A stretch of DNA of 63,982 bases, the filler included, from Sphacelaria rigidula (Eukaryota), in NCBI GenBank assembly GCA_964200075.2. It is 3 parts of 3 records of this genome, joined end to end, with 100 filler letters (N's around TTAATTAATTAA, not from the genome) between each part and the next. Parts side by side here need not be neighbours in the genome. Positions count along the whole stretch, not along the records: positions 1 to 21,583 come from CAXNAA020000405.1; 2 more parts are not named here. One strand, 5' to 3'. Positions 4,383-51,268 of the stretch are shown piece after piece. Within the stretch, counting starts at the first letter, position 1. Every line of letters begins with the position of its first letter. A program made the position numbers and the translations under genes. The notes under the pieces are model-generated. The model had not been told where the DNA came from, ran no database searches, and saw only the letters and a list, made by a program, of their open reading frames with translations.

Positions 4383-4656
4383 ACCCCCCTCCGCCCCGCC
4401 CCTGCTACCGTCGGGGACCCGCCGCNNNNNNNNNNAAATATTTTTTGAATTTTTTGGGGGGGGTGTTGGCGGGGCGGGCCCTCCGGGGGCCCTTTCCCCC
4501 GAGCCCCCCCCCCCCCCCCCCCCCCGAACATACAGGAGTAGGAACGGTGCTCTGTCTCGATAGGGATGCGCGGTCAACGGTGAAATGACTTAAGGCAAGC
4601 AATAATGAGTACGCCCCAAACACACCCTGAAATCGGTTGCTATGGCACACACCTTC

Positions 4657-4908
4657 GACACTTTCTACGATAGCCCCCACCCCCAAAACCAGCCCAAAAG
4701 TGTCGCGAAAAAAATGATCATACAGCGCCTGATGTTTGAGCTCTGGCTGCATGAAGCGCCTCATATGGGCCATATTGGCGAGAACGAACCCAAGGGTGGG
4801 GATTCTCAGCTGCTCTTTGTGCCCGACCTCTTCCATTTCAATTAACATGGAGATTTTGTCTCACCGAATCAGGCCTTTTTTTAGGGGGGGGCTATCGTAG
4901 AAAGTGTA
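4657..4908. mobile_element. MITE, about 250 bp, with terminal inverted repeat (TIR) GACACTTTCTACGATAGCCCCC
   Basis: The ends are inverted repeats: gacactttctacgatagccccc ... gggggctatcgtagaaagtgt. A homologous copy in opposite orientation lies at 23738-23959, and fragments occur near 8570-8950. Confidence 0.75.
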
Positions 4909-5821
4909 CTTGATAATTTGCGCGTCAAATGACTGGCTGCTCTTTGCAGAGTATTTGTACCTCTATAATCCAAGTTACGAGAGTGGTACCGCAATAGCCC
5001 CCACCCCCCTTAACGGGTTTCACTGCCGCGAAGAAATGGCCATACAGCTCACCCAGACTGTGGGTGGGTGATGCCTCCGTAGCTGTCATGAGGTGGAGAG
5101 GCGGTCGCAGTATCCCCTTCCCAGACCCGCGGATCACGTGGTTTGTGCATATCAAGGGTTTCCAGTAGTAGCATAGTCACCGAGATGTCAAGATTTTGGG
5201 TCTGACCAGAAGGCAGATCAGATGGATGTTTTTATTGTGTCCCCGCCGCTGTTCTGTGTACTGTTATTGCCTTACACCGGCCTTCCTTCACCGTAAATTG
5301 AGTCCAAGGCGCTTCTTTTGGTATCATATTTGCATCTAGTGTCCGTTTTATCCGTTTACTCTAGATGAAAATGGCACAGCCCAGTAGAGCCACCTCATCC
5401 CCCGCCCCCACCAGCCCCAGGTCCGGCCACCGCAAGTCTTCTGCTCAACATGATACTACACAACTGACCCCCCAGGTCTCTGCAGGACATTAACACGAGG
5501 CTGTTGTGCCTACGGTCGGCTCCCCTCACACTCGTAAATCGATGCGCTGCGCTCTTCGTGTCGGGGATGGTCCCATCGCGGCTGCACCTTTTGAGGCACC
5601 CCGTTCCATGACACTCGTGCAGTCGAAGCGTTACGCTCCTCGTGTCGGGCCTGATCCCACGGCGATACAATCTGTACCTGCCCCGGCTGTTTCAGCTCCT
5701 TCGACGCAAAGTTAGAAGCGCGATGCTACGCATCTTGGGTCGGCGACGCCAGCAATGCCGCCGGCATTTGCCTCGTCTTCCGTACCCCCATTCCCATGTC
5801 CGACAAATCCGTCGCACCCCG

Positions 5822-6360
5822 ACCCTTCTGGTGATTCCAATATCCCAACAGCGCCACTGGCCACAGGTTTCGAACAATTGCTTCGTCCCTCGCCGGATGT
5901 CGTGTCCGATGATTCGGCGTCGAAACCTCTCTCGCACGCGCTCGCCGCCGCCTTTCGAGCCGCTGCCTCGCATCCGGTTTCCTTCGCTCATCTCCATTTT
6001 GAGCACCTGCACAACACATGACCTCTGGGTCTGCGCATGTTGCAACTCACAACACTGCGTTGCGTCCGGATTCTCGCCCAGGGTCGAGGTATGTTGATGA
6101 CACTTTCCGTCCATCTCCGAAGTATCAAGATTGGTTGCACGCCTCCGTGCGCCATGACACATTGGTAGATCAGGATGGCCCCACCGCTCACGTAGCTCGT
6201 AATGGTGCCAATAACAGCAGTGAACAGAGGCATAGCCTTCACCCGGACCATGGCGTCGTACCCTTTTCGACTGACAGTCTCCCAGCCGGCGAGGGACCAG
6301 GCAGTTGTTCGAAACCTGTGGCCAGTGGCACTGTTGTGATAATGGAATCACCATAAGGGT
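5822..6360. repeat. Inverted repeat, arms about 75 bp (5822-5896 / 6286-6360)
   Basis: acccttctggtgattccaatatcccaacagcgccactggccacaggtttcgaacaa... matches the reverse complement of 6286-6360 with scattered mismatches. Confidence 0.9.
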
Positions 6361-6373
6361 TGGGGTGAGACGG

Positions 6374-6973
6374 CGATCGCGCATATAGTGCTCACCGCCG
6401 TCGAACTGATCGCGAAGCCCCGTCCCGCCCGGATTCCGCCACCATACGTGCTGTCGAACAACCAATCGTGGATCTACAGCACTATCTACGCTGGGCGATC
6501 ATAATGGACCACCTGGTGCCTTCGACTTCAACGCCCCCTTCGGCCGCCGCCGCTGGCGACATGGACGCCGAGAGTGTCCGCACTCCTGGCTAATTGCCGT
6601 TCCCTGCAGCTGCGCCAGCCATTGCTTCGGCAGCTGTCTCCGAGCCTTCGGGGATGACCGCCGCACCCTGGGAGACTGTAGCCATGCCACCGGCAGTTGC
6701 CGCGCCTCCGACGGCTCCGTGAAAGACAATTGGCTATGAGTACGGACACTCTCGACGTCCATGTCGCCAGCGGCGGCGGTAGCGGCGGCGGCGGTGGCGG
6801 CGGCCGAAGGGGACGCTGAAGTCGAAGGCGCCAGGTGGTCCATTGTGATCGCCCAGCGTAGATAGTGCTGTAGATCCATGATGGGTTGTTCGACAGCATG
6901 TATGGTGGCGGAATCCGGGCGGGACGGGGCTTCGCGATCAGTTCGACGGCGGTGAACGCTACATGCGCGATCG
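6374..6973. repeat. Long inverted repeat, arms about 225-245 bp (6374-6597 / 6728-6973), spacer about 130 bp
   Basis: The left arm (caccgccgtcgaactgatcgcgaagccccgtcccgcccggattccgccaccatac...) is the reverse complement of the right arm. The right arm has an expanded GCG tract. Confidence 0.92.
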
Positions 6974-9125
6974 TTGGTCAATGTCGGGTCGATGGGGAAC
7001 AGAGAGCTTTGTGACATCTGGTCATGGGGTCTCGCCATTGAGGACCCAGAAGTTGATGAACCCAACAATACAGTTTGTGCATCATGAGCATGTCGCCGTC
7101 ACCTGACGAAAAGCCTGATGGAGACAAACTTCTTTATCTTGACCTCCCCCGTGATGTTCAGGGACATGACGCTAAATCCCGCGTCTCTATGCACCGTTGC
7201 ATACCTTGCAAGCACCCGCATGACACTAGTGATTGGCCCAAATATCTATCTGCCGGTCTCACCCAATACGTGCTCAACAGCTGTTCGACCAAGTCAACGC
7301 TCTATCAGGTTACCACCGACAACATGACCGATTAACCTCTCCACCTGGCTGTGTTCCATTCCGCTGGTCACCAGATTACTCGCTGTCGAGGAGGTAACAT
7401 TGCTGTCATGAAAAAATCCACTGGCGACGCCTTCGGAGCGCGTCCTGGGAATGCGAACCAGACCTTTAGTTACACCGCCGTGCTTTCCTTTTATACATCG
7501 GTTTCCGCTGCTCAGGAGAGAAAAATTTCAAGACACCAACGCCTACAACAGACTACAAACGGAGCTTATTCGGAGCACAACCAGCAGACCAAGAACGGAG
7601 CTTGCCTGAACCACCTTCATCCACGACTACCGGAGTTTCTCGTATTCACACTTTTGACTCGTATGGCTGACGCTGGACCCCTTTGAGTATTTGAATTTCT
7701 TATTCCCTTGCATTCTTCGGTTTGGCCCAACATGCATTCGTCGCATGTGATATGCATTTTGGCGATTGAGTTTGGTATCACCCACGTAGACGTTGTGCCC
7801 CCTGCTCCGCCTTCCGGTTTGCCTCTCCACGTGGCAAGTGCGTCGAAGCATTCTTTCCGCCCGTTTGTGCTCGCTAGCCCGCAGAAGCATTCTGCGCTCC
7901 TGCGTATTCAAGCGCAATTGCGCTTTCTGAAGCAGCTTATGCTTCTCTTGTTTGGGGTGTAGGAGGATCTGCCTTTCTCGCCACTCATGAGTTCACGAGT
8001 GAAGAAAAGCCTCAGTTTTCGTTGATTTCGACATCATTCATCGCAACTTTAATAGAGGCTCGTCTGGGTGGGCTGGTGTCATGAGATGGAGAAGCGGTCG
8101 TAGTCTCCCCTTCCCAGACCCGTGGGTCACGTGGTTTGTGCATATCAAGGGTCTCCACTAGCAGCATAATCATCGAGATTTTAAGATCTCGGGTCTGACC
8201 AGTAGGCAGATCAGATAAATGTCCCCCAGGCCCAAGAAGCGGAATCGCCTCGGTCGGGGATGGAGGCTCGATGAAGGCAGGTGGGGTCCCCACCCCACCT
8301 TGCCCACTCTTCTGAGCTTGAACATTCTTCTGTATCAATCGCTTCTGGCGATTTGGTGGGTGCGAGTGAGAGCTAGGAGCGAGTACAATCAAACAAAGCT
8401 ACAACACGATTGAGCTTCCTGTCTAATCAATAGGCACGTACACCTACCGCGTAGACTGAAAATATGGAAGAGAAGTACAGAGTGTCATATACTATTTGTT
8501 AATAATTAACTTTATTGGGGATCGCTTCGTGCGGGTACACAAGAGAGTGGTATCCCGCCCCGTCTCCATTACATAGCCCCCCTACGAGAAGGGGCTGGTT
8601 TGAGGGGGCATAATCGACATGCGGATACAAAAGCAAAACCCGAGCACACCGAGCAACAGGAAACTCCCACGCGCAGAATCGTTCACGCTAATGTCGACCA
8701 TATGAAGCGCTTCATCGTGCAGTCTAAAAGCCAGCCATCATGCGCTGTATGACCACTTTTTTCGTAACAGTGTCAGGGTTGGTTCGGAGGGGGAACTATC
8801 GCGGAATCACTCGTTTGATAAAGCAGGCCTTGGAATTTATCAAGCTACAACCTATTTTGAAGAATGAAGATGAAACTATTATGGTTTCAGAAACACCTCA
8901 CATGTAGATTTTGCCTTGGTCCCCCTGACACTCTCCTGACGGGGGGCTATCGAGGCTTCACTCCCGAGAAGGTTTTATGAGGGTCATGCCATAAAACATG
9001 TGTCCACTAATATGTCATCGCGCTACCATAGCTGAAGCAGTGTTTCTAATAGGGGTGAGGGCGCATAGCTGCACGCTACCACTCCGTACCTGAATTTTTC
9101 TCTCTGCTTTTCATTTCGTTGTTAA

Positions 9126-9230
9126 CCGTTTGCCTGCGAGAGTAGGTCACCTACTGAATCGGCATCAACATTCACTTGCCAAAAGCATGCGTGATCTAGA
9201 TGGACTACCCGCGCCGCGGTCTAAGGAGGG
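9126..9230. mobile_element. Diverged piggyBac-type mini-MITE (TTAA-flanked), inverted copy
   Basis: TTAA occurs at 9122-9125 and 9231-9234. The internal sequence is a reverse-complement homologue of 63115-63213. Confidence 0.6.
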
Positions 9231-12200
9231 TTAATACGTTCATTTTTTACCCGGCGGGTTCAATGTCATCAGATTGTTGCTCAGTGACCAACGGTGTCTA
9301 AGGCGGCCTGGAAAAAATTCCCGACCTCAAGACTTTGGAACAGAGGAAGGAAAGGATGGAAGGACAACATGATAGCTTGAGAGGCGAAGAGAGTTTATCC
9401 ATGTAAGCACGACGGACTTGAACAAATGGAATCGCCAGAGGACGAGAAAACTAAGTTGATTTCACCACGTTGAATCCCCCCTCCTTCCACATTACTGATA
9501 CCCTGAATCTGGTTCGTTGAAGTCTTACGACTTTTGAAGAGTATATCCAACTCGTTGAGGAGTTTTCTATCTATCTGCGTTCAAACGTGTTAAACCGTTA
9601 CCGTTCCTGGCGTTGATGTGATTCAGCAAAGTTTGTCTCGTGTGCCCCCACGAAATAAAGTAGTGATAGCTCTTCCACCGCGTTGACCGCCGTCCCGGTT
9701 GTTTGTATCCAGGAGTCAGCATCCAGGCGAAGAATTTTGATCAGCGTTTTACTCTGTTTCCCACGAGGGCGCGGTGTCGACAACGGTATGAGGACGGTTC
9801 TCAACGTCCGTAACTCTGGCCTCGTCCCTACACCCAAGAGATCGACACATGTTGCACCTGTTGAGTGGATTGGCATTGACGGTGGTTTTTGATGTACAAG
9901 GATCACACGGCCGGTACGTCGGAACCTTCTGGTGTACATCAACATCGACAAGCACAACAGTTACCGCGCTACCTTTGCACATCCGTCGTATTCATGTGTG
10001 CGGGATGCCATAACAGGACGTTGTGCCTCGTATGTGATGCCTACAGCAAACTCGCAGGCTACGTGGTGTGTACACGAAAGGGTACATTACACCCAGCGAG
10101 GTTGGCGCTCGCTCGTGACTATGATGGCAGGGATTGACGAATAACTTACATGCCATAAGAACTGTTTCATCGAACTGATATATGTGGCACGCACATAGCA
10201 TTTATAACTGTTATGACTGGCCCAAGGCGTCTGAGGCATCCGATATCCTAGGTTGACTTCACGAGATACTTTCCTCGTGACATCGGCCTCTGTCAGATTT
10301 GTCGAAGAGACGGGCGTCCGGTTTCGTGTGGTTCAGGTCCCCCCTCCATTTTCAAGATTCATGTACGTGGGAACTAGCGTGGCGCAATATTGAAGACGTC
10401 TAGACGCGAAAACTTCGAGTGCTGTGAGCACAACGCATTGCAGGCAAAGTATTCTGAACGCAAAATACGATGGAGGTAGGCGTGCGGGTGCACGCTCGTT
10501 CCGCTTGGGCATGGAGTATCTGACAGATCTGTCACGAGTTGTGGTGACGATGAAGTTTCGAAGGACCCAAGTATCGTGCCGATTTCAATGCAGCCAAGTT
10601 CACGAGGGTTTCCCGGCAGCGAGCGTGTAGTACTGTACCCTCGTAGGGCAAACAAGAGAGCCGGCGAGACCCCATCGATCGCAGATCTGAGTATACAGTA
10701 GATGCACACGATCGGCATTCTTGACACATGAAAACTAATAACGGCGATTACTGTCTCAAACTACAGAATCACGATAATTGCCAATTGCCGGGTAATTTAC
10801 AAGTTTCATATACAATACAGTACTACTGCACGACCACCGTCCGTTGTGGTCAACTGTACAGCACACTCTATTTTGTATGTTGTTGCGGAATAAGTTGAGT
10901 GATCCTGCCCATGCTTTTCACCAAAGATTATCGCCGGACACATTTTATGGGTATACAGGTTTTTCAGCTGTCATTTCTCTGTGATGCCTGCTGCATGCAG
11001 TACCTGTCAAACGATACTTGCTGCAGCTTACCTCGCAATTCTCTCTATTTTTGTGGTATCAGACAAGTCTCTCTGTGGGGTGCTGTAAAATGTCCAATAC
11101 GTGTGTTGGCGATTTTTCCTGTTTGGGGTTCAAAAAGTGGGTCAAACGTCCTAAAAGTGAACAATCTGTGGGCCAAAAATCTCTGTGCCATAATATCCGG
11201 CCTCTCAGACTGAAACCGAACGTAATTATATTTATATTTCTTTTTCATTTGACCGCAAGGCTTGATGGCCATCTGCTGTTACACCCGCATCGTCTTCCCC
11301 TCGTCGAAAAAACAGGACCAAACAACAAAAATACACACCAAACGCCCATGTCCCGCAAAATTGACTTACTGTAATATTCAGTAGCACCGTTGTAAACGTA
11401 CACACCAGAAAGGGCAACTTCGTGTTTTAAGGCGCGATTAGCAGGCCAACACCTCCGCACCACTAGAAGCAAAATACGTTCACGTCCGCCCCGTACTTCC
11501 CTGCTGTGTGAAGCTGTACTCTACTACACTGTACTGCGCTATACGGTGCTTTGCTGCTCTGATCTGCTGTGATGAAGCACCACTGTTATACGATGTCCAG
11601 CATGTACCACTACTCTCTGTGCTGTACTGCATCACCACTCACAGCCGTCCCATACCCCAGCACACATGCTGTTGCACTACTGTCTGTAGTACACTTTAGC
11701 AGAGTGTGCTAAGAAGATGGGATACGGACTACCTTCAACATAACGCATGTGCGAAGTACAGTGTGCCTAGATATCGCACTGCACTCCACCGTGCTGTGTC
11801 GTACTGTGAGAATGCTGCCCATGCTCTGACTGTTCTCGTGTACTCTGCGGTGAGGCACCGTGATTTGCAGTGGGTGTGGGTACATGAAAGCTGTGCGGTA
11901 GAAGCAAGATCGCGAGCATTAAAGCAAAGTGAATGCGCTACTGTAAAATGGTGAGAACAGCTCTAACTGCGATGGTGCCAAGCCACTACTTCGATTGCGT
12001 CAGCAGGTGGAATGCATTGCAGTGCGTTACCCAACTCTCTTTGGCGCGGGGGGTGGGGGGAAGGAGGGGGGCGGGGGGGGGGGAGGGCAGTCCCGCTGGT
12101 TATTGTGCACTGGTGTCAAGCTGCTGTCGTACTATTGTTTGCCCTCCGTGTTTTAAACGGCTGTAACAACACAAAATTCCTCCGCGTTTTATTACGCCGC

Positions 12201-13730
12201 GTTTCAGATACCCAGCGAAACCGTTAGTCGAGGGTCCCCGAAAATTTGGCTCTGCAGTATATTTTTGGCTGAGAGGAGAATAGATGATCGATCACCCTAG
12301 CACCCGCACGAGAGAGATAAACCCGGGCGTGTGCACAAACACACAAGCAGTAAGTGCGTCTCATCAGCACAGGTGAACAGCTCTCGACCAGCGAAGACCT
12401 TCGGATTATTGCACGATTGGGGGTGAGAAGCAAGTTGCGAAGCTGACTACCTCCGGGAAGCGTTGGTGTGTGGTGAGTTCCTCCCCTCTGTCGCTGGTTT
12501 GTGACGCTGCTGTCAGGGCACAGAAGTTGCGATACAGAAATTCGTGGGGGTTTCGCGATACGAGGAAGCGTTAGGTGCTCGTGGCGCACAGGATGCACCA
12601 GGATGCTTGCTGAGATCGTCTCCATGTGTGCGTCTCTGTCTTTCCGGCTTGCTCTCATTTTGTTGGTTTTTTCGTCTGTCTGTCTGTTCATCTGTCTTGT
12701 CTTTCTGTAATTGTCACTCGCGATATCCCCCACTCTTGTCCTGAGGGCATTCTCTAGCGACAGTTCTGTGAGAGGAGAGGAAGTTGGCGATGGGTCGGGT
12801 GTTTGGCTAGTCATGTTATCAAAACGCCGCAAAAAATATGTGACCATTTACTGCAAGTTCGTCCTCACCAGTGCGTCTGTCGTTGCGGAGTGTTTGCTGC
12901 ACTATACCCTGTAGCCCCCCCCCTCTAGGCATTCCTGCGCTGGGTATGCATTTGGCACGTTCGGTGCTCGACTGTGAGCGCGAAAAAGGAAAATCCCAAC
13001 CTCTCGTACTGTACTGTATCGACTCTGCTTTGTTCGATGTGCATAATCTGTAAGTGGAGTCAGTAAGACAGTATATTCAAAGAAGAAAAAAACATGGGTG
13101 AACAGCAAATTTGTTCCGCGCGCCCTCCTTGGAAGTAACTGGCTTGCCAGTTCGAGTAGCGCTTCATGTAGACCCATTTGGTTGGGTCGAGGCGACTGTG
13201 CTCGTGCTCACTTCCCTGTCAACTGTACGCGGCATTGTTTTTTCGCGACAGGCTGCTTTGAGCATGCGGGATCAAGTTAGCTGCCTCTGGTGGATATCTG
13301 TACTGTTGTACATGACCCCATCAATAATTGCGCGAGTTTTATTCTCTGGGAACAGGTGGCAGTCTACGGTTCAATTACGCGGACCCCTGAACCGACGTGA
13401 CAATCCATGAAAAGCCTCGAATGTCAAGATATACTCTATACTTTCGATGTGTATACATGTGCGCCCACGGAGGTCGAAGACAGACCCTGCGCAGGGTACG
13501 GCGGTGTCGAGCCGTGCAAAAGTGGAAAAGTGTGGACCCTCTTCAGTGTGCATATCTTCGTGACGCCGCCGCCGCCTTCACTTCTTGAAAAGCGCGATTC
13601 AGGCTACTCGTACGTCTAATAGATTGCGTACCCCCCCCGGCCCCGCCACCTCCCTTCCCCGCCCGCCCTCCCACCCCATACCCCCCCCGCCATCCTATCT
13701 ACTTTAGTCTGTGACTACAGCAATCAGATC

Positions 13731-15374
13731 ATGGCTGCTGCTGATTTCTCCTTCCACGCGGGGATGGAATTATTCGAGCCGGGCCTCGTAGACCTGGAAC
13801 CCGCGATGCCTCCGCTGCACCCGCTGCGGCGCTCGCTTTCCCCCCTGCCAACCCGACGACACCCGCGACATCTGTCCGTAGACGAAGGGCAGGAAGCAGA
13901 GACCGTGCTCGGGGAAGACGGCGAGGAGCTGGCTTTGCCAAGGTCTCTCAATTATCGAGGAGGCATCGTGGGAGCGGCTGGAAGGCGGGTCGCTGCTAGC
14001 GCCGAGCCCGCGGCGGCAGCGGGAGTGGCAGAACAGCCCGGGGGTCCGCTCGGCGGCGACGACAGCTTCTCCGCTGTGTCCGCTGCCGCCGCCAGCGCCG
14101 CCGATGGCATGCCGCTATTCGATGATGGTGTGTCCTCGGCAACATCGGAGGATGTGGATGACGATGTGTCTGCCCCACCGGCGCCAATGACGCCGGCAAC
14201 TGTGAACGGAAGTGCAAGGTCGATGGGTATGGGCATCATGGGGGCCCTCGTGGGAGAACGACGGGCACGCGGCGGCGCCGGTGTTAGAGATGAAATGGCC
14301 GAGAGCAGCAGGAGACGTACATTTGGCGGCGGTGGGATTGATCATGGTGTTGATGCCACGGCAAATACTGACGGCGGCAGCATCCACAGGGTACGCAGCG
14401 TTAGCAACGTCAGTAGCACCGACAGTGCAATCAGCGCAGTTAGTAGCAGCGCCGTCCTAGGCATAGAGCGGGAACAGCAGCAGCGATCAAGAAGGCGTGG
14501 GGTGTCGCTAGGTGGTGGAGGTGGGGGTAGCAATGGGTTCGTGCGGTCGGGGCTTTCGCGCAAATTTGTCCGCAGCCTGATCCGACACCTGAACCTCCGG
14601 GCAGACTCGCGGCAGCGGGAAGACCTCCGATCAATGGTTGAAACACTCAAGTGCGTCGCCAATCAACCGGGAGTCGACATGAAGCAAGAGCTCAAGCGCG
14701 AGGCCGTTTCACTCCTGGGACCTGAACTCGCGCGTGAGGCATTTGAGGCTTCGCTCTCGGAAACACGCACCGAGTTTCTGCGCCAGCGCACTGTGGCCGC
14801 CGCGTCGGCCGCCGCCGCGGAGGCGGCGGCCGCAACTACCGCGATCGGCGGAGGTCAAGCGGCCGCGGCAGCCGCAGCCGCAGCCGCAGCCGCAGCAGCC
14901 GCCAGCCAGCAGCGCGGACTATCACCAGTATCAGGTGGAGCAACTGCGGGCATGAGTGAGGAGAATGGGGACGGGAGGGTCGGGGGGGTGCCGCCGGGGG
15001 TACAGGGGCGGCCCAGAGGAGCTCATCCGCACCCCCGGAAGCGGAAGAGCACAGGTGGGCGGAGGGATAGCTTAGACAGCGATGGCGAAGAGGTTGGTGG
15101 ACTGATCGGCGGAGTGACCGGCTCTGTTCCATTTCACCTCATGCCGGCGGAGGAGGTAGAGCAGAGGCTCAAGGCGCTGCACAAGGGCCCCGCGCACCAG
15201 GACTTCCACTTGTGCTGCGTGTGCATGGACCGGTCGCGCGACGCTGCGATAATCCACGGGAAGACGGCTCACCAGGCGGCCTGCTATGACTGCGCCACGG
15301 AGATGTTCGAACAGGGCCTACCTTGCCCTTGTTGCCGGCAGCCGATCGCTTTTGTCGTCAGGAACTACCTCTAG
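13731..15374 (+). CDS. Intronless 547-aa protein with a C-terminal MDM2/MDMX-type C2H2C4 RING finger (putative E3 ubiquitin ligase)
   Basis: The ORF is uninterrupted from ATG to TAG. Its C-terminus CCVCMDRSRDAAIIHGKTAHQAACYDCATEMFEQGLPCPCCRQPIAFVVRNYL* has the spacing C-x2-C-x10-H-x4-H-x3-C-x2-C-x10-C-x2-C. The N-terminal region is low-complexity, with a helical-looking block at about 14556-14790. Confidence 0.92.
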   Translation: MAAADFSFHAGMELFEPGLVDLEPAMPPLHPLRRSLSPLPTRRHPRHLSVDEGQEAETVLGEDGEELALPRSLNYRGGIVGAAGRRVAASAEPAAAAGVAEQPGGPLGGDDSFSAVSAAAASAADGMPLFDDGVSSATSEDVDDDVSAPPAPMTPATVNGSARSMGMGIMGALVGERRARGGAGVRDEMAESSRRRTFGGGGIDHGVDATANTDGGSIHRVRSVSNVSSTDSAISAVSSSAVLGIEREQQQRSRRRGVSLGGGGGGSNGFVRSGLSRKFVRSLIRHLNLRADSRQREDLRSMVETLKCVANQPGVDMKQELKREAVSLLGPELAREAFEASLSETRTEFLRQRTVAAASAAAAEAAAATTAIGGGQAAAAAAAAAAAAAAASQQRGLSPVSGGATAGMSEENGDGRVGGVPPGVQGRPRGAHPHPRKRKSTGGRRDSLDSDGEEVGGLIGGVTGSVPFHLMPAEEVEQRLKALHKGPAHQDFHLCCVCMDRSRDAAIIHGKTAHQAACYDCATEMFEQGLPCPCCRQPIAFVVRNYL

Positions 15375-17212
15375 CTCGCGCGCGTCCGGTGGGTGGTCGG
15401 CATAAGCGGCGTAGAAATAGCAAAGGTGCTGCACTCCTAGGCGTTTGCCGGGGAGTTTGCACTGAAAGGCAGTCGCTTGCACGCGTGCGACACGACGATC
15501 CGGACGGGATCCCCCGTCCCTGTCCCTGTCTCCGCCCCCCCCGTCCCCTCCCCGCGCGCGCGCATGTGGTTGTTCATCGACTTTTTGCTCGAACATTTTG
15601 GTAAATTACCACCATAGAAAAATCAAGTGTTGAAGAGCATGTGGTTTGATAGATGCACATGCACGGAAAGAGGAAATGAGGGCTGATCATCAAAAGTGAG
15701 GAGTGGGGGACACCTTTTTAGCTGTGATAATTTAACGTTCAACCAAACGCGTTTCGTTCGCCTGGTTGCATGATGGGGTGATGTCGGGATATCGATGTTG
15801 GTGACAAACTTTAATAGTTGACTAGTGATCATTTTGCAGGTGTGTGTGGGTGCGTGTTTGGCGGAGTCCACGTGGACAGGACGGCAGGGACATTCCACCG
15901 CTCCTTGAAATGCTTTTCTCCGTGAATTATTCACGGTTTGAAAAACGTTGGGTGTTGCTCCGACGGGGGGATTGGATGCCTTTATTTTTTTCCTGGAGAG
16001 GCATGAGCAGGACCGTCGTTGCACCATGTGCTGTAGTGTTGCGTGTTGTTTGTTGTGAGATTGGACTCGCGCACGTAGCGTATTAATCAGGCGGTTGTTC
16101 TTGCTGCTTGCTGAAGTTGAAGGGTGACATATTCGAGTGGGGGGTGGGGGGCGGGGGAGGTTGCGACCTGCTTTGCGTTGGTTGTACCTGGTTGTCGTGT
16201 GGATGGTTTCAGTTACAAGCGTTTCGTGTTTTTTTTGGTGGCACTGATTTGTTCTTGCGGAGTGCGTGTCGTCCCGTTCTTGGAGAAGAAAACAAACTGA
16301 ACATGATTTCGAGACTCGTGCAGGAAAAGCCCGGCCCGGTTTTGAACGATAGGCGGACCGGACCAATCAGTGCTCTCTTCCGCGTCTGTGTGTACACAGA
16401 CGCACACGTGCAGTTTCTCTTTTTATTTGGCGTCCTGGTCATTGGGAGGGAGAGGGAAAGGAGGGCCTTGAGGTCCCTGACGTACAGTATAACAGATTGT
16501 TCGAGGTAGCTCAATATATGAGAATCCAATCTTCCAGTGCCGTGGAGTGAACATAGCAGCTGTGGGGGGTGGTATTGGGGGTTTAGGCATTTCTATACAT
16601 ACAAGAGATAGCGCGTGGGCACGAGATATGATGTTGCCGCAATAATGCGAACGTGTTTTTTAGTATTTTTCAAAGATGATAGCAGTGGAGATGCGAAATG
16701 TATACAGGTGTCGAGGACGGGGGGGGGGATGATGGCACAGCGATCTTCACCTGAATTTAGCTAATCTGAGTCGCTCGCGTGATGTTGGTGGCGAGACATT
16801 GCTCGTTCGTGGATGGTTCTTGTGATTTGCGCAAGCAACGTCGTTGGCCGTGGCCGTTGCCGTGGATGGCAGCTGCGGACCTTTATGTCGAGGGCCTGTT
16901 TGTTTGTTTATTCTCGAAGAAGGTGGAGGAGGAATTTTGTTCGACATACGAGTATATATATTTTCTTGAGAGCTAGAACGAGAGATACGTGGCCGTATCA
17001 TAGATAGTGAGCGCGTCTTTTTACCTGAGGACCATATCGGAAACAACGAACCGAATGGACCCAAATAGTATAGTGATCGTGGTGGCTGTTTTTCCTCAAA
17101 CCGCTCGCGGTGGAATTGGATATCAGAGATAGCTGGGGAAGGATCGCGATGAAAGCGTCGGAAACAGTTTTTGGGTTGTCGGTCCGTGTATGTGCTAGCG
17201 TCGCCGTCGTCG

Positions 17213-17252
<40 letters not shown>

Positions 17253-18706
17253 CTCCCGGCCCCCCCCCGCTAGTCGTGGTTCACGAAGAAATGAGGGCAN
17301 NNNNNNNNNGGTGGGGGAGGACTGGGATGAAAGCGTCGGAAAAAGTTTTTGGGTTTTCCGTCCGGGTTTGTTCTTGCGGCGCCGGCGGCCCCCCCCCCCC
17401 CCCCCGCGCGCCCATGTCTTCTCCGTTGGCGATGCCGTTTCGGTAGTTATGACGAAATACCGGACGATATTTTGCTCGGAAATGTTGAGGTCTTCCGTCG
17501 TCTTTTGAATCGAGCTTTTTGTTCAAAAATTGTACACATCGTGGGGTGTCCAATTGCTGTTATTACCCCGACTCCAAGCACGCTGTAACTACTTCTTTTT
17601 TTTTCGTACCCGTTCACGTGACCAGTGCTACGGCTGTTCCTTGAGCGGCATCCTTTCAGTACAAAAACGACAGTTGATCTAGAAATCCGTCAAACCTGGG
17701 GCTGTAGCTGAGTGACTCGTCCCTGTACATATGCCGACACGCTTGAAAAAATGGATCCAGCGCGTATGACGGTCCTCATGACCTGATGCTTTACAAAAGC
17801 AGCCCGCTCATGAAAAACTGACACATCACGAAAAGGCTGAGTTTCTTGCCTGATGCACAGGTTGATCATAACCTGTGTGCAATGCTATGGTGGGGGTGCA
17901 CTCTTCGCGCAAAATATTGTCTAGTTCCGGGACTCTTCACGATTAGAGATGCACAAGAATATGGGTCAGGGCATGCCCGTTTGCAAATTCATTCGCGACA
18001 TCCCCAGCATATGAAAATAGTAATCCTGGCGAATTCTCACATAGTCGTGTTTTGGATAAGATGAAAGGCTCCTAGCGATTCTAACCTGAGAAAATATTTG
18101 TGCACCCTTACCATATCATCACTGCTCGATATTGAACTGAGGCTAGCGCACCCCTCGTTGAGGCTGAGAAGAAAACACCTTTTTTGAAAACAGTTCGCCT
18201 GATTTTCCCACAACCTCGTTACTGATGAGCGGGCTGCTACAAATTGGTCCACGGGTAATCGCTCAAAAATTGTGTCATCAGCAAATGCCCCATGCCTTGC
18301 GTAATGCCCACCCAATAGTCGCGTACATGATCGTAGTACTGACACATGGACAACCGAAGAGAGGAGCAGCCGTATTTCGGTCAAGACGAGGGGCCCCGTA
18401 TCGGGAAATGGGTGCACCACCACCGCCCAGGCCGCAAAAAACACATTCTGGGGTTGGAGGAGTGACGGGGGGGGGGGGTACCCCTCTGATCGTTGGATGA
18501 TGGCACACGGCCTGAAAGGGTGAAAAAATTGCGCGAACGAACTGAGTAAACACTGCGCCCTTTCCGGATCTTCCATCTTCTACTTATCACATATAACAGT
18601 TTCATAAAATATACAGATATCCAATCTTTGGCTCAACCTCTTGGTAGGAGTCAAAATTTCGCGAAAAAAGTACACCCCTACCGTAGCATTGCTCGGCAAC
18701 TAAACA

Positions 18707-18946
18707 ACATGCTGCTTTCGAACGCTTGTTCCCTTTCAGGCTTGTTTTTATATGTCGATCAGACACTGCCTCATAATTTCAACAGTGGTGGACTAGTGGG
18801 GTGGCGGGCCTGTTCACAGAACAGCCGACAAGCTCATCAAATCAACCACGTGTGTTTGAGAGTTTCCCACGAAAAATTATGAGGCAGTGTCTGATCGAGA
18901 TATAAAAACAAGCCTGAAGGGGAAAAAGCGTTCGAACGCAGCATGT
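18707..18946. mobile_element. Fold-back/MITE-like element, arms about 73 bp
   Basis: acatgctgctttcgaacgcttgttccctttcaggcttgtttttatatgtcgatcagacactgcctcataattt pairs with 18874-18946. A third, diverged arm copy starts at about 18970. Confidence 0.85.
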
Positions 18947-19862
18947 CCACCCGCTTAGCGATCAATCAGCATGCTGCTTTGGACGCTTGTTCCTCTCCAC
19001 GCGCTTCTTTTTTCGGTCTCGATCAGACACGGCCCAAGCCAGGGATGAGGCCCAGGAGGAGCGGAGTGACTATCCTGAGCAATCACGGCTGTCAACATGG
19101 TCCCTTTGTTCCCCCGTAGGTGGACTACACGGGTGGACTGCTTCGCTGAGTAGCCGTATTTCTCACTTTGGTCATGGCGAGTAGATAACATGGGCACAAA
19201 CAATGTCCTCTTCACTCCGCTCGCGGTCTTTACCGCCTGCCTGACCCCTCTTGCGTTGCAGGATAGCTGCAAACTGTACGTGATGTTTTGAAGATGAGAG
19301 TAGCTGCCTAGTCTAATCCACAGAAATGAAAAAAATCAAGAGAAGCATGTGTAGTGCACCCATGACGGATCCGTGACTACTGTAGATCAAGACACCCGTT
19401 CTCCCATCAAGGTTGATATTTTGTGGCTGTGGTATTCGTAGACCACGGGGGGGGGGGCAATTTCGAAGCCGCAACAATCCTCGTGGTTCACACTGTGACT
19501 ATTCCTCATTCAGCGTTCACGCACGAATGAAGGTGAGCGACGTGCTCGCGTAAATGGTTTCAGCCACGGATGGTCCATACACAGAAACTGTCCGACAGAC
19601 TCCGCACGGACATGCCAGGATTTTCGCCGGTCAAAAATCCCCACATCAGCCACAAGGTGGAGAGAAGAAAAGCATTTCTCCAGACTACTTGTGCACCCAA
19701 CACCGCCCCCTCTCGCCCTTCCGTTACTCATGCCTAATCGGCTATAATAACAGAGATGAACTAGCGGCGCGGCGCACGCGTGCGCGCGCGTATGACGAGA
19801 AAACGCCAAATCAGGAACAATATGACGCTTTTTGAGGGAGGGAGGGGAAGGGGGCGATAGAG

Positions 19863-48119: not shown

Positions 48120-49683
48120 ATGGACGAGTAGAAATCGTACGAAAGGCTCCTGGAAGCGTAGGCAGCTGACGTACTCTCCTGTGCCTTGCTGCATGAGTCC
48201 CGCAACAGCAAACGCCAGATATTGTGCCCCGTTCTATGCACAGAGGATCGAATTGTATTAGGGTGTCCAGTCAAGTACACTCTCGAATCGGAAAGCCAGC
48301 GTTTTTCGGGTAGGTATGCGAGTACATGCACGCTGCAAAAGGAAGCCATGAATCATTACAGCGAGATCTGCTTCCTTGTGTATAACCCCATCTCACCTGT
48401 ACCACACGAGGATCCTGAAAGTACTCAGCACCAAGCGCGTTCCAAACATCCTCAAGCACTGGTTTCCTGCGATAAACCTCCGCCGCCCCTGAGTTACCTG
48501 GGCTTGCTTGCTTCCTCTCCGCTCCACTCGCAGCGCCACCACCGCCTACCCTGCTTGACGGCTTACTCACTGCTGCCGCAACCGGAGCGGCGTCGGTGAC
48601 GGAACTAATCCCTGCTCTTGCCGACCCAGCAGAGACTCGGCGTCTTGTCGCACTGCTCTGTCCGTCTTCAACAGCCCTCGCGACCGAGTCATTGTCGTGC
48701 CGCAAGCGCGCGGCGGCCACCACTGCTGCCGCTCTCGTGGGCCGACAGCTTGCTGCCGTTAGCAGCGGCCGTTGCGACGGCATCGAGTGAGTCCGCTTCG
48801 GTTCCTCCTCTTGCTGCTGTCGTCTGTGCTCGCTTTGTTCCCTTGGATTTGAATCTGCTTTCCTCCTGATGCTTCTGCTTACACGGCTCGTTCCTGTCTC
48901 CTTCGTTTCTTCATCCAGAGCTGAACTAGATGCAACGGGTGCGGATGCGCGCCGAGAAGACGATCTGGCGGATGATTTCGCCACCCGCACTGGACAGGCG
49001 TCGCCGCCGCCGCGCTCCCGAGAGTTCGGGCTTGACCCCTCTGCTGATATTCGCCCGGTGTTGGTACTACTGTCGCCGCGGCTACTGCCACGGCCACGCT
49101 TGGAAGTTGATGAGGTGACAGCTGCAAAATGCTGTGATGTTTCACAATCACTCTTCTTGTTGTCGGCAGCGGCGGTGTCATGCTTGCTTCGCGCGCTGCC
49201 CATAATGGCAGCAGAGGGCGAGTCACCGCCAGTAATGGGACTGGTACGTTCTATGCGCCCTTGCTGTTGTATCGTTGCTCTTGCCGCGTTGGGAGAAGGA
49301 ACAGTCGACTTCACTCCATGATACTGATTGGTGATGTTTGTGCGAGACGACTGCCTTGCACCGGTAGTGGACGAACTACCTGCCCCGCCTACTCCCGCTG
49401 GGGTACCTCCGCTTTTAGTTTCCCGCTTTCCTGGTGTAGAAGAAGTTGAATGAACACTAGCACCTCCGTTCTTATCCTTGCCAACTGTCGGGTTGTTGCT
49501 GACACGACTTCCGACGTTTGTGCATGTGTTGCTAGTCATCGAAGTAGTTGCTGCGCAGGAGCGCGTAGGCCTCTGGGTTATGCCTCGTTGTTGTTGGCCT
49601 CTCTGCCGGTGCTGCGGCCGGTCGCCCGATGTAGCCCCATACAACAGAGATGCTGAGACTAAGGAATCCGCTGCTGGGCCCAT
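48120..49683 (-). CDS. Spliced gene of unknown function with a long Ser/Arg/Thr-rich disordered N-terminus; 3' exons uncertain
   Basis: Exon 1 spans 49683-48397 (429 codons, ending ...VWNALGAEYFQDPRVVQ|GTGAGA). Exon 2 spans 48188-48120 (CAG|QGTGEYVSCLRFQEPFVRFLLVH|GTATGT) and is in phase. Further candidate exons lie near 47800 and 47214-47136 (WRTLYENLLAARVNHLSNQHYFRSK|GTGAGT). Confidence 0.7.
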
Positions 49684-51268
49684 GACAGCCCTCTTGTATT
49701 TATCGAGTTCTTACAGTGCTCTTACAAACGCCACGGTTGCGTTCCAGGTGCTTGGGTGACTATTCGAGACAGGAAAAGGGATGGGTTGATCCTTCCCTTA
49801 GGGCTGTCGTAGAGCTCGAAACAAATGGGCGAAGATATCTCTGGGAGATTTCTGTTGTGCTGTCTTCACCACGGTCTGTACTATGTTCTCGTAGTGATCA
49901 CAAAAAAACTCCACAGGCGAATATAAAACTCGACCACTACCAAAAGTAGACGCCGCTTCCGGTGAGAACACGGAAAAAATACCTTAGGCAAAATTTGCAC
50001 CAGCTGTTGTACGATATATCAGGGGCGGCTGCCTGTGCCGTGATGAAAAAACAACACTCTTAAAGCACAGACCATACCCCAGTGAAACTTGACTACAGAC
50101 GGGATGCGTCCCAGATCATTCCCCCGTCCCCCGTCGCCCCCGGGTGATCGTCTTCGGTGGCTCCTGACTGCTCTTCTGGTGTGGCAGCTACACTACAGTA
50201 GTTCAGTGAAGTAGTGTATAGCCACTATACTACTGCCGTCCGTTCGATTTGTGGTGGGGACCGCAAACTTGTTAGCATAACTTTTTTTATTGTTGTGATT
50301 GATGATGGGATGGAGTTTTGTCGATCCGCATAAAAATCCAAAATCCAAGGGTGCTTGGCAATAACGACAACAGCGGCAGTAGCAGCAGCAGCCCTGCCCT
50401 GTGGCAACCCTGCCCTGTACAATGGCTGCACCCGCCGGCGCATGATACTGCCTGGCGATGTCGATGCAAACCGTGTGGACACAGCGGTGTGTTTACTGCA
50501 CAAGCCTCTCCTCCCGACGCCGTACCTCCTACTGCACTCGGCCGTTCTGAAACAAATCGGTCTATCTGCTTGACTGCATTTTTTCACGATCTCCAATCGG
50601 AGGCAGGATGCGGGTGAAAAATTCAAAAAAATGCATGGCACATATGTGTACAGAAGATAGTATACACAACACATGTGCAAAACCTACTGTACGATCAATA
50701 TAGTATTATGGTACAACGCACGGGTGCAGGACGGTTGTACTGGAGACACAAAACGAAGTGGGCAGCTGTGTCTTGTCCCCAGAATTTCACCAACGAAAGA
50801 AAGGTCACAAGTTTGAAAGTACGTGATCATCAATACAGCAGTACACGCACCGAAGTACGAATACCCTGTAATCAAGAGGACCAGCGGCGCATACAGCGCA
50901 CCAACAAATACAATTACAAGGACGAACCCATGGATGCATAATCCGGATCCAAAAAATATTGTAAAAAGTGCTGACGGCTGACGGTGAAATACTGTGACTG
51001 CACTTCAAAATGAGACTGTTTGAAAATTATCCCAGAATTATTAGGGCACGAGACAAAACAAGGTACAATCGAGTCCGCTCCCATCTCTATGGCTAGAAAT
51101 GGGTATATTTTTTCTCGGAGTATATATACAATGAGTTCTTTGTGTGGGTAGCTTGAACCCAAGTAAATAACCACGAGTGTCAAGGGTACCGTTTTATCGG
51201 CTCACTTAGCTGCAGGTGTTTGTTTCACCTGCACACATTTCGGGGTCTGATTTCGTAGACTGAACGCT

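What the first reader, a model, noticed from the sequence alone, without database searches (positions are those of the whole stretch)
13731..15374. Intronless MDM2-type RING ligase in an apparently non-animal (brown-alga-like) genome
Seen: the ligand spacing C-x2-C-x10-H-x4-H-x3-C-x2-C-x10-C-x2-C, the motif IIHGKTAH, CRQPI, and a short hydrophobic tail ending VVRNYL*. Known: this is the atypical C2H2C4 RING of MDM2/MDMX (IVHGKTGH...CPVCRQPI...VLTYF), whose C-terminal aromatic tail drives dimerisation and E2~Ub activation. Seen: there is no recognisable SWIB/p53-binding domain or RanBP2 zinc finger, and the gene has no introns while its neighbours have many. Inference: a p53-independent MDM2-like ubiquitin ligase with an unknown substrate, possibly arising by retroposition or lateral/viral transfer.
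Basis: partly seen in the sequence, partly recalled or inferred. Interest (0 to 1): 0.8.

Follow-up and report, generated by a model that had tools for sequence, protein, structure and literature searches.

The report
Brown-alga ubiquitin ligase with MDM2-type RING
This is a real gene of a brown-alga-like organism whose protein ends in the unusual zinc-binding RING domain best known from the animal cancer protein MDM2, but it belongs to an alga-specific family that looks inherited rather than borrowed, and this RING type also occurs in other protists.

Summary
The ORF 13731-15374 (+), 547 aa, is real. Its C-terminus is an MDM2-type C2H2C4 RING with exactly the stated ligand spacing and a 12-residue aromatic tail. 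Against solved structures, MDM2 scores E 6e-13, MDM4 about 2e-9, and the next family (cIAP2) 0.0075. No SWIB or RanBP finger is present.

The "intronless" claim is only half right. The coding region is one exon, but RNA-like runs show a canonical GT..AG 5'UTR intron of 1,235 nt (12473-13707).

The transfer idea is not supported:
- Six full-length unnamed homologues share the RING and a nearly invariant, unclassifiable central block (residues 272-353).
- Fragments come from Discosporangium (a brown alga) and Phaeothamnion.
- The same RING spacing is in 147 of 150 best database hits. These include an alveolate (Amoebophrya), MMETSP protists, and proteins with SH2-ankyrin, ZZ or UBR-box modules.
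- In a careful tree, the animal SWIB/RanBP proteins form their own supported clade that excludes the algal family.
- No viral relatives or viral neighbours were found.

Best reading: a vertically inherited, lineage-specific, probably dimeric, p53-independent RING E3 ligase whose substrate is unknown. Interest is moderate.

The parts
12393..12472 (+). Exon 1 (5'UTR), minimal extent. It contains an in-frame TGA at 12424-12426 and no ATG.
   Evidence: RNA-like contigs start at 12393/12394 and run to the joint (tables 5 and 8). Sequence read.
12473..13707 (+). 5'UTR intron, 1,235 nt, GTGAGT...pyrimidine tract...AG
   Evidence: Joint 12471->13707 (cut +1), GT..AG, in X3, X6 and X9 at depths 44.1, 36.6 and 51.7. 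It is absent from DNA run X1. Splice sites read.
13252..13604 (+). Minor alternative 5'UTR segment (alternative acceptor at 13250-13251)
   Evidence: Joint 12471->13251, GT..AG, in X3 and X6 at depths 3.8 and 7.5. Contig pieces cover 13251-13604 and 13251-13538.
13731..15374 (+). Coding sequence, 547 codons plus stop, one exon. The first ATG of the known spliced leader.
   Evidence: RNA-like contigs are colinear over 13707-14798 and from 14967 on. Full-length colinear homologues.
14544..14789 (+). Central conserved block, residues 272-353: nearly invariant, with no known family
   Evidence: Alignment A1 shows long runs of invariant columns. Identity to the six homologues is 88-98% over residues 266-356. 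No PDB hit at E<=10 and no Pfam hit at E<=10.
15021..15050 (+). Conserved basic patch, residues 431-440 (A-H-P-H-P-R-K-R-K-S). A nuclear-localisation-like signal; this role is inferred.
   Evidence: Invariant columns A431, P433, P435, R436, K437, R438 and S440 in A1. The function is inference only.
15126..15212 (+). Conserved pre-RING segment, residues 466-494
   Evidence: Invariant columns F468, P472, E474, E477, R479-A482, H484, G486, P487, H489 and D491-L494. It is also kept in the Discosporangium and Phaeothamnion fragments.
15213..15335 (+). MDM2-type C2H2C4 RING, residues 495-535
   Evidence: Pfam PF13920 at 34.6 bits. PDB MDM2 at E 6.4e-13. Exact spacing.
15336..15371 (+). C-terminal tail, residues 536-547: Arg directly after the last Cys, and Tyr-Leu at the end
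   Evidence: the tail is 12 residues in all 10 family rows. Of 147 MDM2-spaced hits, R follows the last Cys in 145. Of the 146 hits with a tail long enough to count, F or Y stands at +11 in 134. Y546 aligns with MDM2 residue 489 (row 8bgu_F, offset 57).
15375..17196 (+). Probable long 3'UTR (inferred; the strand and the transcript end are not shown)
   Evidence: Single RNA-like contigs run colinearly from 14960-14979 to 17196 in X3, X6 and X9 and stop at a poly-C tract and assembly gap. No Pfam hit in the minus-strand ORF 15626-16366.

Best explanation
This is a native, expressed nuclear gene of an alga of the brown-algal lineage. It encodes a member of a lineage-specific protein family with three parts:
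- a variable, low-complexity N-terminal half;
- a nearly invariant ~82-residue block (residues 272-353) of unknown fold;
- after an Ala-rich linker and a basic patch, a C-terminal MDM2-type C2H2C4 RING with a 12-residue aromatic tail.

Shown:
- the gene, its splicing and its conservation;
- the RING subtype;
- the absence of SWIB and RanBP domains;
- the spread of this RING subtype beyond animals.

Inferred from MDM2 structural work:
- Two RINGs dimerise.
- Each RING binds a ubiquitin-charged E2.
- The Arg after the last Cys (R536) and the tail of the partner protomer (Y546, L547) hold E2~Ub in the closed, reactive state.
- The invariant central block recruits a conserved, probably nuclear, substrate that is not p53.

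The family looks vertically inherited. The RING-plus-tail cassette looks like an old eukaryotic module that different lineages have joined to different targeting domains. SWIB in animals is one such case.
For: Gene and expression:
- ORF.
- GT..AG joint 12471->13707 in three RNA-like runs and not in the DNA run; contigs are colinear over the CDS.
- In-frame stop in exon 1 and no upstream ATG.
- GC3 is 0.66 overall and 0.82 in the RING. The intron has 0.52 GC and the 3' flank 0.51.

RING subtype:
- PF13920 at 34.6 bits.
- MDM2 at E 6.4e-13 against cIAP2 at 0.0075.
- Exact spacing.

Family:
- Six full-length homologues, 65-89% identical, all with the central block and the RING.
- Fragments from Discosporangium mesarthrocarpum and Phaeothamnion confervicola.

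Spread of the RING type:
- 1,197 representatives at E<=1e-3.
- 147 of the 150 listed have the exact spacing.
- 33 of 149 scanned carry SWIB and/or RanBP matches. Others carry SH2+ankyrin, ankyrin, ZZ x4 or UBR-box.
- One hit is from Amoebophrya sp. A25, and one cluster holds MMETSP transcripts.
- Three 'mdm2' homologues are reported in p53-less Aureococcus (PMC11371579, passages read).

Phylogeny:
- The SWIB/RanBP rows form a clade at 97/92 that excludes the algal family.
- Holding the algal and protist-like rows together gives p-AU 0.58 and a log-likelihood 8.36 higher.

Mechanism by analogy:
- MDM2 residues Y489, F490 and P491 of the second protomer pack on donor ubiquitin in trans (PMC7190642, passages).
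- Mutating Y489 ablates activity (PMC8459461, passages).
- Y546 and L547 align with positions 489 and 490.
Against:
- MDM4 has the same RING type yet is inactive on its own (PMC7190642, PMC6372010), so the subtype does not prove ligase activity.
- The tail is one residue shorter than in 111 of the 147 hits (12 against 13).
- The RNA label of runs X3, X6 and X9 is the tool's guess, and all three come from one study.
- The first, quick 155-row tree put the algal family on the animal side of the main split (SH-aLRT 93, not starred).
- In the careful tree, an arachnid protein named MDM4 (P0151; long branch, odd composition) groups with the algal family at 96/86.
- With 55 columns, deep branching is unresolved.
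- The groups for the AU test were named after the first tree had been seen.
- Only two family members carry organism names, and both are fragments. The taxonomic span therefore rests on few points.
- No annotated full-length orthologue from a model brown alga was found in the 300-958 aa band. Shorter and longer bands were not searched.
Confidence: 0.7

Rival explanations
1. The gene, or its RING module, entered the brown-algal lineage by transfer from an animal or a giant virus, or arose as a retrogene.
For: - The coding region has a single exon.
- The RING is 45-57% identical to many invertebrate MDM2-like RINGs.
- The quick tree placed the family on the animal side (SH-aLRT 93).
- An arachnid 'MDM4' groups with the family at 96/86.
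- Brown algae carry many giant-virus insertions that include RING and SWIB/MDM2-domain genes (PMC11890097, one figure-legend passage read).
Against: - A spliced 5'UTR intron is present.
- The family is conserved from the window's organism to Discosporangium and Phaeothamnion.
- The same RING type occurs in Amoebophrya, in MMETSP protists and with other architectures.
- The animal-architecture clade excludes the family at 97/92, and the AU test gives p 0.58.
- Two IMG/VR scans found no relative. The single hit was a phage winged-helix regulator.
- None of the 94 neighbouring ORFs reached a Pfam cut-off.
- No poly(A) remnant or target-site duplication was seen, only G- and C-tracts.
- Composition resembles other long ORFs of the window.
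Confidence: 0.07
2. The protein is an MDM4-like, catalytically weak RING. It works only as the partner of a paralogous active RING, or as a non-enzymatic scaffold.
For: - MDM4 shares the C2H2C4 RING but lacks activity of its own (PMC7190642 and PMC6372010, passages).
- In three RNA-like runs, a contig matches the window only from 15143 onward and carries different, in-frame-looking sequence before it. This hints at a paralogue or isoform that shares the RING end (table 7). That sequence is not in the window.
Against: - The residue right after the last Cys is Arg (R536) in all 10 family rows and in 145 of 147 hits.
- The review says human MDM4 needs K478R and N448C to become active. That K478 is this position is my recollection, not a call result.
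- The aromatic residue aligned with Y489 is kept as Y or F in all 10 rows.
- V497 occupies the position aligned with MDM2 residue 440. That this is an E2-contact residue is recalled.
Confidence: 0.12
3. The MDM2-like ligand pattern arose by convergence from an ordinary C3HC4_3 RING, so the likeness to MDM2 says nothing about shared ancestry.
For: - RING domains are short and ligand swaps are common.
- Deep branches of the 55-column tree are unresolved.
Against: - Identity extends to non-ligand positions (H-G-K-T, C-R-Q-P-I, the tail aromatic). It is 24 of 58 residues, E 6.4e-13, eight or more orders of magnitude better than any non-MDM RING in the PDB.
- Spacing and tail length are shared by 147 of 150 best hits across animals and protists.
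Confidence: 0.08
4. The ORF is a chance open frame in GC-rich DNA and not a gene.
For: - Ala- and Gly-rich low complexity makes up much of the protein.
- Overlapping long frames exist on both strands.
Against: - Full-length homologues show block-wise conservation.
- A significant domain is present.
- A spliced leader and colinear RNA-like contigs are seen.
Confidence: 0.01

Closest known systems
Animal MDM2 / MDM4 (MDMX)
   Same: - C-terminal C2H2C4 RING with identical ligand spacing.
- Arg after the last Cys.
- A short tail with an aromatic residue aligned with MDM2 Y489.
- Best PDB matches by far.
- A basic patch and an acidic stretch lie upstream of the RING, as a loose parallel only.
   Different: - No SWIB/p53-binding domain, no RanBP2-type zinc finger, and no long acidic domain.
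- The tail is 12 residues, not 13.
- It carries an unrelated invariant central block.
- The host is an alga. The Aureococcus paper states that no plant or algal lineage has a known p53.
- It falls outside the SWIB/RanBP clade in the careful tree.
Non-animal MDM2-type RING proteins (Amoebophrya sp. A25 CAD7972359.1, MMETSP transcripts, metagenomic proteins auto-named 'E3 ubiquitin-protein ligase Mdm2', the three Aureococcus 'mdm2' homologues)
   Same: The same RING spacing and tail without a SWIB domain. The hosts are p53-less protists (PMC11371579). I did not see the Aureococcus sequences themselves.
   Different: - They lack the brown-algal central block. Searching residues 266-356 found only the six family members among 292 candidates.
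- Their partners are SH2+ankyrin, ankyrin, ZZ, UBR-box, tandem RINGs, or none.
IAP-type and other zf-C3HC4_3 dimeric RING ligases (cIAP2, XIAP)
   Same: The same Pfam family (PF13920) and a C-terminal RING followed by a short tail.
   Different: PDB E-values are only 0.0075 to 0.3, and the matched chain stretches are shorter: 58 query residues match 52 in cIAP2. That their ligand set is C3HC4, without the insertion between ligands 3 and 4, is my recollection.
RING and SWIB/MDM2-domain genes of giant-virus insertions in brown algae
   Same: Brown-algal genomes do contain virus-derived RING genes (PMC11890097, one figure-legend passage).
   Different: - There is no viral context here. None of the 94 neighbour ORFs has a Pfam domain above cut-off.
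- No IMG/VR relatives were found.
- The gene is spliced.

Membership tests
MDM2/MDM4 orthologue family | N-terminal SWIB/p53-binding domain | tested here: not met
   No PF02201 match at E<=1 on the whole protein, nor at E<=10 on residues 1-254 and 255-365.
MDM2/MDM4 orthologue family | Central RanBP2-type zinc finger | tested here: not met
   No PF00641 match.
MDM2/MDM4 orthologue family | C-terminal C2H2C4 RING. Aberg et al. 2017 used it as an inclusion criterion (PMC5543598, passages). | tested here: met
   Exact spacing at residues 495-535. MDM2 at E 6.4e-13.
MDM2/MDM4 orthologue family | Groups with SWIB/RanBP-bearing proteins in a RING tree | tested here: not met
   The 33 SWIB/RanBP rows form a clade at 97/92 without the algal family. 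The AU test does not reject algal plus protist-like rows as one side (p 0.58). The quick tree was ambiguous.
Pfam zf-C3HC4_3 (PF13920) | Score above the curated gathering cut-off | tested here: met
   34.6 bits against 27, residues 493-540.
MDM2-type (C2H2C4) RING subclass | Ligands C2H2C4 with spacing 2-10-4-3-2-10-2, and closest solved relatives being MDM2/MDM4 | tested here: met
   A CDD sub-family model was not available in these tools.
Tail-dependent dimeric RING E3 ligases | Homodimer through the RING and the C-terminal tail, with the tail contacting donor ubiquitin in trans | not testable with these tools
Only sequence correspondence is shown: Y546 and L547 align with MDM2 residues 489 and 490.
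Tail-dependent dimeric RING E3 ligases | Arg or Lys 'linchpin' directly after the last zinc ligand | tested here: met
   R536 is invariant in A1. R occupies this position in 145 of 147 hits. The linchpin role is recalled knowledge.
Processed retrogene | No introns at all, a poly(A) remnant and target-site duplications | tested here: not met
   A 5'UTR intron is present. No A-tract or flanking direct repeat was found other than G/C homopolymer tracts.
Endogenous giant-virus element | Viral hallmark genes nearby and relatives in viral contigs | tested here: not met
   None of the 94 ORFs reached a Pfam cut-off. IMG/VR scans found none. Those scans used a few exact peptide patterns, so distant viral RINGs could be missed.

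The most novel reading that the evidence does not exclude
The MDM2-type RING-plus-tail cassette predates animals. In the independently multicellular brown-algal lineage it is wired to an ultra-conserved novel domain, forming a functional counterpart of MDM2. That counterpart would be a dimeric E3 keeping a short-lived nuclear regulator (a p53 analogue in role, not in sequence) under constant degradation. If so, the family offers a way to ask what MDM2-type RINGs did before p53 existed.
Probability: 0.15. Interest if true: 0.7.

Novelty: new variant of a known kind. Interest (0 to 1): 0.4.

Why it matters
Two reviews of MDM evolution call the C2H2C4 RING unique to MDM proteins. One of them searched metazoan databases only (PMC5543598, PMC6372010; passages read).

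Here the same spacing, the same Arg after the last Cys and the same aromatic tail are found in several non-animal settings:
- a conserved family of the brown-algal lineage;
- an alveolate and other marine protists;
- proteins that join the RING to at least five other domain arrangements.

This suggests that animal MDM2 arose by joining a SWIB domain to an older ligase cassette. It also means automatic 'Mdm2' labels in algal genomes, such as the three in Aureococcus, report a RING subtype and not a p53 regulator.

For brown-algal biology, the result flags a nearly unannotated family. Only two fragmentary named entries were found. Its central block is more conserved than its catalytic domain, which points to a conserved but unknown target.

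My literature searches for MDM2 with brown alga, choanoflagellate, C2H2C4, stramenopile, Ectocarpus or diatom found no description of this family. The library lacks most subscription journals, and supplements were closed.

Tried and rejected
- **Earlier findings and whole genome:** not available.
- **Sequencing runs:** no RNA holder listed. The three runs used as RNA-like are guesses by the tool.
- **Cover gaps:** the RNA-like runs have no cover over 14799-14966 (poly-Ala GCN repeat) or beyond 17196 (poly-C tract and gap). I take nothing from this.
- **Loose-end sequences at 15143 and 14103:** not present in the window, so left unexplained.
- **Word-based search with the RING alone:** only 9 candidates, 5 of them family members. 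This was too insensitive to find MDM2-type RINGs elsewhere.
- **Central block:** no PDB match at E<=10 and no Pfam match at E<=10. Its fold is unknown.
- **ESM Atlas:** did not hold the window's protein parts or P0038. For the stored homologue P0009 it gave an MDM2 cluster at 0.95 and a mostly diatom cluster at 0.89 / TM 0.62. These are leads only.
- **Wide RING alignment A2:** it had no stretch conserved enough for a locus scan.
- **IMG/VR and JGI metagenome scans:**
  - With A1: 78 and 426 pattern matches, none a relative.
  - With the RING alone: one IMG/VR hit, which is a phage winged-helix regulator sharing eight residues.
  - With the RING alone: one metagenome hit, which is an ordinary C3HC4 RING with a coiled coil.
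- **Neighbour ORFs:**
  - 11 long ORFs, some at 48-60 kb.
  - 83 of the 106 ORFs of at least 90 aa below position 34,000 (listed).
  - The 23 left out were 10 overlapping the RING ORF, 6 already, and 7 overlapping frames at 5.7-7.0 kb.
  - Result: none reached a Pfam cut-off. One sub-threshold hit scored 16.6 bits against 27, at 54997-55965.
- **Papers that matched only on words:** PMC12126595 and PMC3422240 and PMC7303358.
Full report
**The observation**

The window holds an ATG-started ORF at 13731-15374 on the plus strand, 547 codons. It is the longest of the 46 stop-to-stop frames of at least 150 aa in the window.

Its last 53 residues match C-x2-C-x10-H-x4-H-x3-C-x2-C-x10-C-x2-C, starting at residue 495 and followed by 12 more residues. 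Two extra cysteines (C496, C534) make the pattern ambiguous by eye. The HMMER alignment to MDM2 fixes the ligands as C495, C498, H509, H514, C518, C521, C532 and C535.

Pfam reports zf-C3HC4_3 at 34.6 bits (cut-off 27). No SWIB or RanBP finger appears at E<=1 on the whole protein, nor at E<=10 on residues 1-254 and 255-365 scanned separately.

Against all PDB chain sequences:
- 14 MDM2 entries score E 6.4e-13 to 9.6e-10.
- 3 MDM4 entries score about 2e-9.
- The next family, cIAP2, scores 0.0075.

Identity to the best MDM2 chain is 24 of 58 aligned residues (my count from the match line).

**Gene structure and expression**

One search for public runs listed 12 runs, 11 of which hold the stretch, from 4 studies. 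The organism name is coded, and some runs are labelled algae metagenome. No holder is on record as RNA. Four small runs of one study are guessed to be RNA.

I laid three of them (X3, X6, X9) and the best DNA holder (X1) on 9500-19500:
- X1 covers all 30 bins at about 25x outside repeats.
- The RNA-like runs cover 21-22 of 30 bins.
- Each RNA-like run carries a contig that joins 12471 to 13707 across a GT..AG interval, at depths 44, 37 and 52. X1 has no such joint.

Read against the sequence, the intron is 12473-13707 (1,235 nt). It starts with GTGAGT and ends with a pyrimidine tract plus AG. A weaker joint to 13251 (depths 3.8 and 7.5, in two runs) marks an alternative acceptor.

Exon 1 (12393-12472 at least) has an in-frame TGA at 12424-12426 and no ATG. 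So 13731 is the first start codon of the known leader.

Contigs are colinear with the genome over 13707-14798 and from about 14967 to 17196. The latter suggests a 3'UTR of 1.8 kb or more, but contigs show neither strand nor transcript ends.

The coding region is thus a single exon, but the gene is spliced. All of this rests on runs of one study whose RNA nature is a guess. The splice-like joint that is absent from DNA is the argument that they are RNA.

**The family**

The word-based search found six full-length homologues (448-557 aa, 65-89% identical), all from unnamed Logan assemblies. The same six came back when only residues 266-356 were used (6 hits among 292 candidates).

Their alignment (A1) shows:
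- a variable N-terminal half;
- a short M-P-L-F-D-D-G-like motif;
- an Arg run;
- an almost invariant block at residues 272-353, 88-98% identical over the query stretch (residues 266-356) that contains it;
- an Ala-rich linker;
- an invariant basic patch (residues 431-440), then an acidic D-S-x-G-E-E stretch;
- a conserved pre-RING segment (466-494);
- the RING and its tail.

The central block has no PDB sequence match at E<=10 and no Pfam match at E<=10. It is better conserved than the RING (77-96%).

The exhaustive search with residues 466-547 added three short family members. Two carry names:
- an unnamed protein product of Discosporangium mesarthrocarpum (105 aa);
- a partial one of Phaeothamnion confervicola (74 aa).

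So the family reaches at least from brown algae to a sister class.

I found no annotated full-length member from a named organism in the 300-958 aa band.

**How special the RING is**

The exhaustive search returned 1,197 representatives at E<=1e-3 and 77 at E<=1e-10. Among the 150 listed:
- 147 have exactly the MDM2 spacing.
- Of those, 145 have Arg after the last Cys.
- 134 of the 146 with a long enough tail have Phe or Tyr at position +11.
- 111 have a 13-residue tail and 17 have a 12-residue tail. All family members have 12.

Pfam scans of 149 of them gave:
- SWIB and/or RanBP-finger matches at E<=1e-3 in 33. SWIB was found in 24, of which 18 reach Pfam's cut-off.
- Other partners in four: SH2 plus ankyrin (P0033), ankyrin (P0130), four ZZ fingers (P0053) and UBR-box (P0147).
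- Two proteins with two MDM2-type RINGs in tandem (P0011, P0013).

Names were recoverable for few:
- P0148 is from the alveolate Amoebophrya sp. A25.
- The P0120 cluster holds MMETSP transcripts.
- P0151 is 'MDM4' of an arachnid.
- Two JGI entries are auto-named 'E3 ubiquitin-protein ligase Mdm2'.

A paper on the pelagophyte Aureococcus lists three 'mdm2' homologues. It states that no p53 homologue is known in that alga or in any plant or algal lineage (PMC11371579, passages read). I did not see those sequences.

By contrast, two MDM evolution papers call the C2H2C4 motif unique to MDM, and one of them searched metazoan databases only (PMC5543598, PMC6372010; passages).

**Phylogeny**

A quick tree of 155 RING segments (55 columns) split off 34 rows without any SWIB/RanBP protein. 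It left the algal family on the side of the animal-type proteins (SH-aLRT 93, not starred).

I then built a careful tree of 78 rows: the 10 family rows, 34 protist-like rows, the 33 SWIB/RanBP rows and P0151. The 77 other rows were dropped. These were 76 'RING-only' rows interleaved with animal proteins, plus the long-branch metagenome row P0072, which the quick tree had placed inside the algal group. Results:
- The 33 SWIB/RanBP rows form a clade at 97/92 without the algal family.
- The algal family forms a group at 96/86 together with the long-branched, compositionally odd P0151.
- The best tree with algal and protist-like rows held together has a log-likelihood 8.36 higher than the free tree, with p-AU 0.58.

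The groups were defined after the first tree had been seen, and 55 columns cannot resolve deep forks. The fair statement is that nothing places the algal RING inside animal MDM2, and its exact sister is unknown.

**Transfer and context**

- Two scans of IMG/VR found no relative. One used the family alignment and one used the RING. The single hit is a phage winged-helix regulator that shares eight residues.
- Two metagenome scans found none. The single hit is an ordinary C3HC4 RING.
- These scans rely on a few exact peptide patterns, so distant viral RINGs could be missed.
- None of the 94 neighbouring ORFs scanned reached a Pfam cut-off, so no viral hallmark genes are evident.
- The unit is flanked by a G-tract (12043-12087) and C-tracts (17204-17274, 17380-17413). 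There is no poly(A) remnant or target-site duplication.
- GC is 0.65 in the ORF (GC3 0.66, and 0.82 in the RING). It is 0.51-0.52 in the intron and 3' flank, and 0.57-0.62 in other long ORFs of the window. This does not suggest foreign DNA.

**Mechanism**

The row for full-length MDM2 (8bgu_F; query 480-546 on chain 423-489) gives an offset of 57. Under that offset:
- R536 aligns with position 479.
- Y546 aligns with position 489.
- L547 aligns with position 490.
- V497 aligns with position 440.

In the MDM2 homodimer bound to UbcH5B~Ub, Y489, F490 and P491 of the second protomer pack on donor ubiquitin in trans (PMC7190642, passages). Mutation of Y489 ablates activity (PMC8459461, passages). 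A review states that human MDM4 becomes an active ligase with N448C and K478R (PMC6372010, figure legend). That K478 corresponds to the residue after the last Cys is my recollection.

The algal family has Arg there and an aromatic residue at the Y489 position in all 10 rows.

I therefore propose a tail-dependent dimeric E3, with the central block as the substrate-binding part and the basic patch as a nuclear signal. Dimerisation, activity, localisation and substrate are all inference. The structure and complex predictors were unavailable.

**Verdict**

The domain call is right and the gene is real. The 'intronless' and 'transfer' parts do not hold.

It is not an MDM2 orthologue, because SWIB, the zinc finger and clade membership all fail. 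It is a new architectural variant built on the MDM2-type RING, in a family that is almost unannotated.

The wider point is of moderate interest: this RING subtype is spread over protists with many partners, contrary to statements that it is unique to MDM proteins. It needs a rooted, named, eukaryote-wide analysis. Supplements of the papers cited (MDM sequence lists, Aureococcus gene tables) were closed and might bear on how much of this is already tabulated.

Noticed in passing
window 15143 (and 14103, 13829, 14803): In X3, X6 and X9, one contig per run matches the window only from 15143 onward. Before that point it carries about 255 nt of different sequence. By my reading that sequence stays in frame with the ORF, which suggests a possible paralogue or isoform sharing the RING-coding end. 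Other loose ends lie at 14103, 13829 and 14803. The foreign sequences are not in the window.
   Followed up: partly
window 10836-11503, 17850-18183, 18518-18851 (core 18652-18694): Summed contig depth in DNA run X1 jumps from about 25 to 4,400-13,600, 48,000 and 86,000. The RNA-like runs also reach 440-2,600. Many different contigs share a 43-nt core. These look like very high-copy repeats near the gene; their nature was not examined.
   Followed up: no
window 12043-12087 and 17204-17274, 17380-17413: A G-rich tract lies upstream of exon 1 and long poly-C tracts lie downstream of the presumed 3'UTR. They bracket the transcription unit as a low-complexity inverted repeat. They break the DNA contigs and create spurious joints (12086->16137 and others). 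A 10-N assembly gap lies at 17300-17309.
   Followed up: partly
window 13252-13604: An alternative 5'UTR acceptor at 13250-13251 adds a segment containing upstream ATGs to a minor share of transcripts (depths 3.8-7.5 against 37-52).
   Followed up: partly
proteins P0011, P0013 (metagenomic): Two proteins carry two MDM2-type C2H2C4 RINGs in tandem in one chain. This could form an intramolecular 'dimer'.
   Followed up: no
proteins P0033, P0053, P0130, P0147: MDM2-type RINGs are fused to SH2 plus ankyrin repeats, four ZZ fingers, ankyrin repeats, or four UBR-box matches. I did not find these architectures described in the papers searched. Their source organisms are unnamed.
   Followed up: partly
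protein P0151 (UYV71324.1, 'MDM4' of Cordylochernes scorpioides): The RING of this arachnid protein groups with the brown-algal family at 96/86 in the careful tree. It has no SWIB match at E<=1e-4, a long branch and odd composition. It is probably an artefact, but this is unexplained.
   Followed up: no
window 48271-49710 (-), 51251-52276 (+), 54997-55968 (+), 59498-60694 (+): Four further long open frames (323-479 aa), rich in Ala, Gly and Ser, with GC 0.57-0.62 and no Pfam domain. They may be long exons of other lineage-specific genes, so long single exons may not be unusual in this region.
   Followed up: partly
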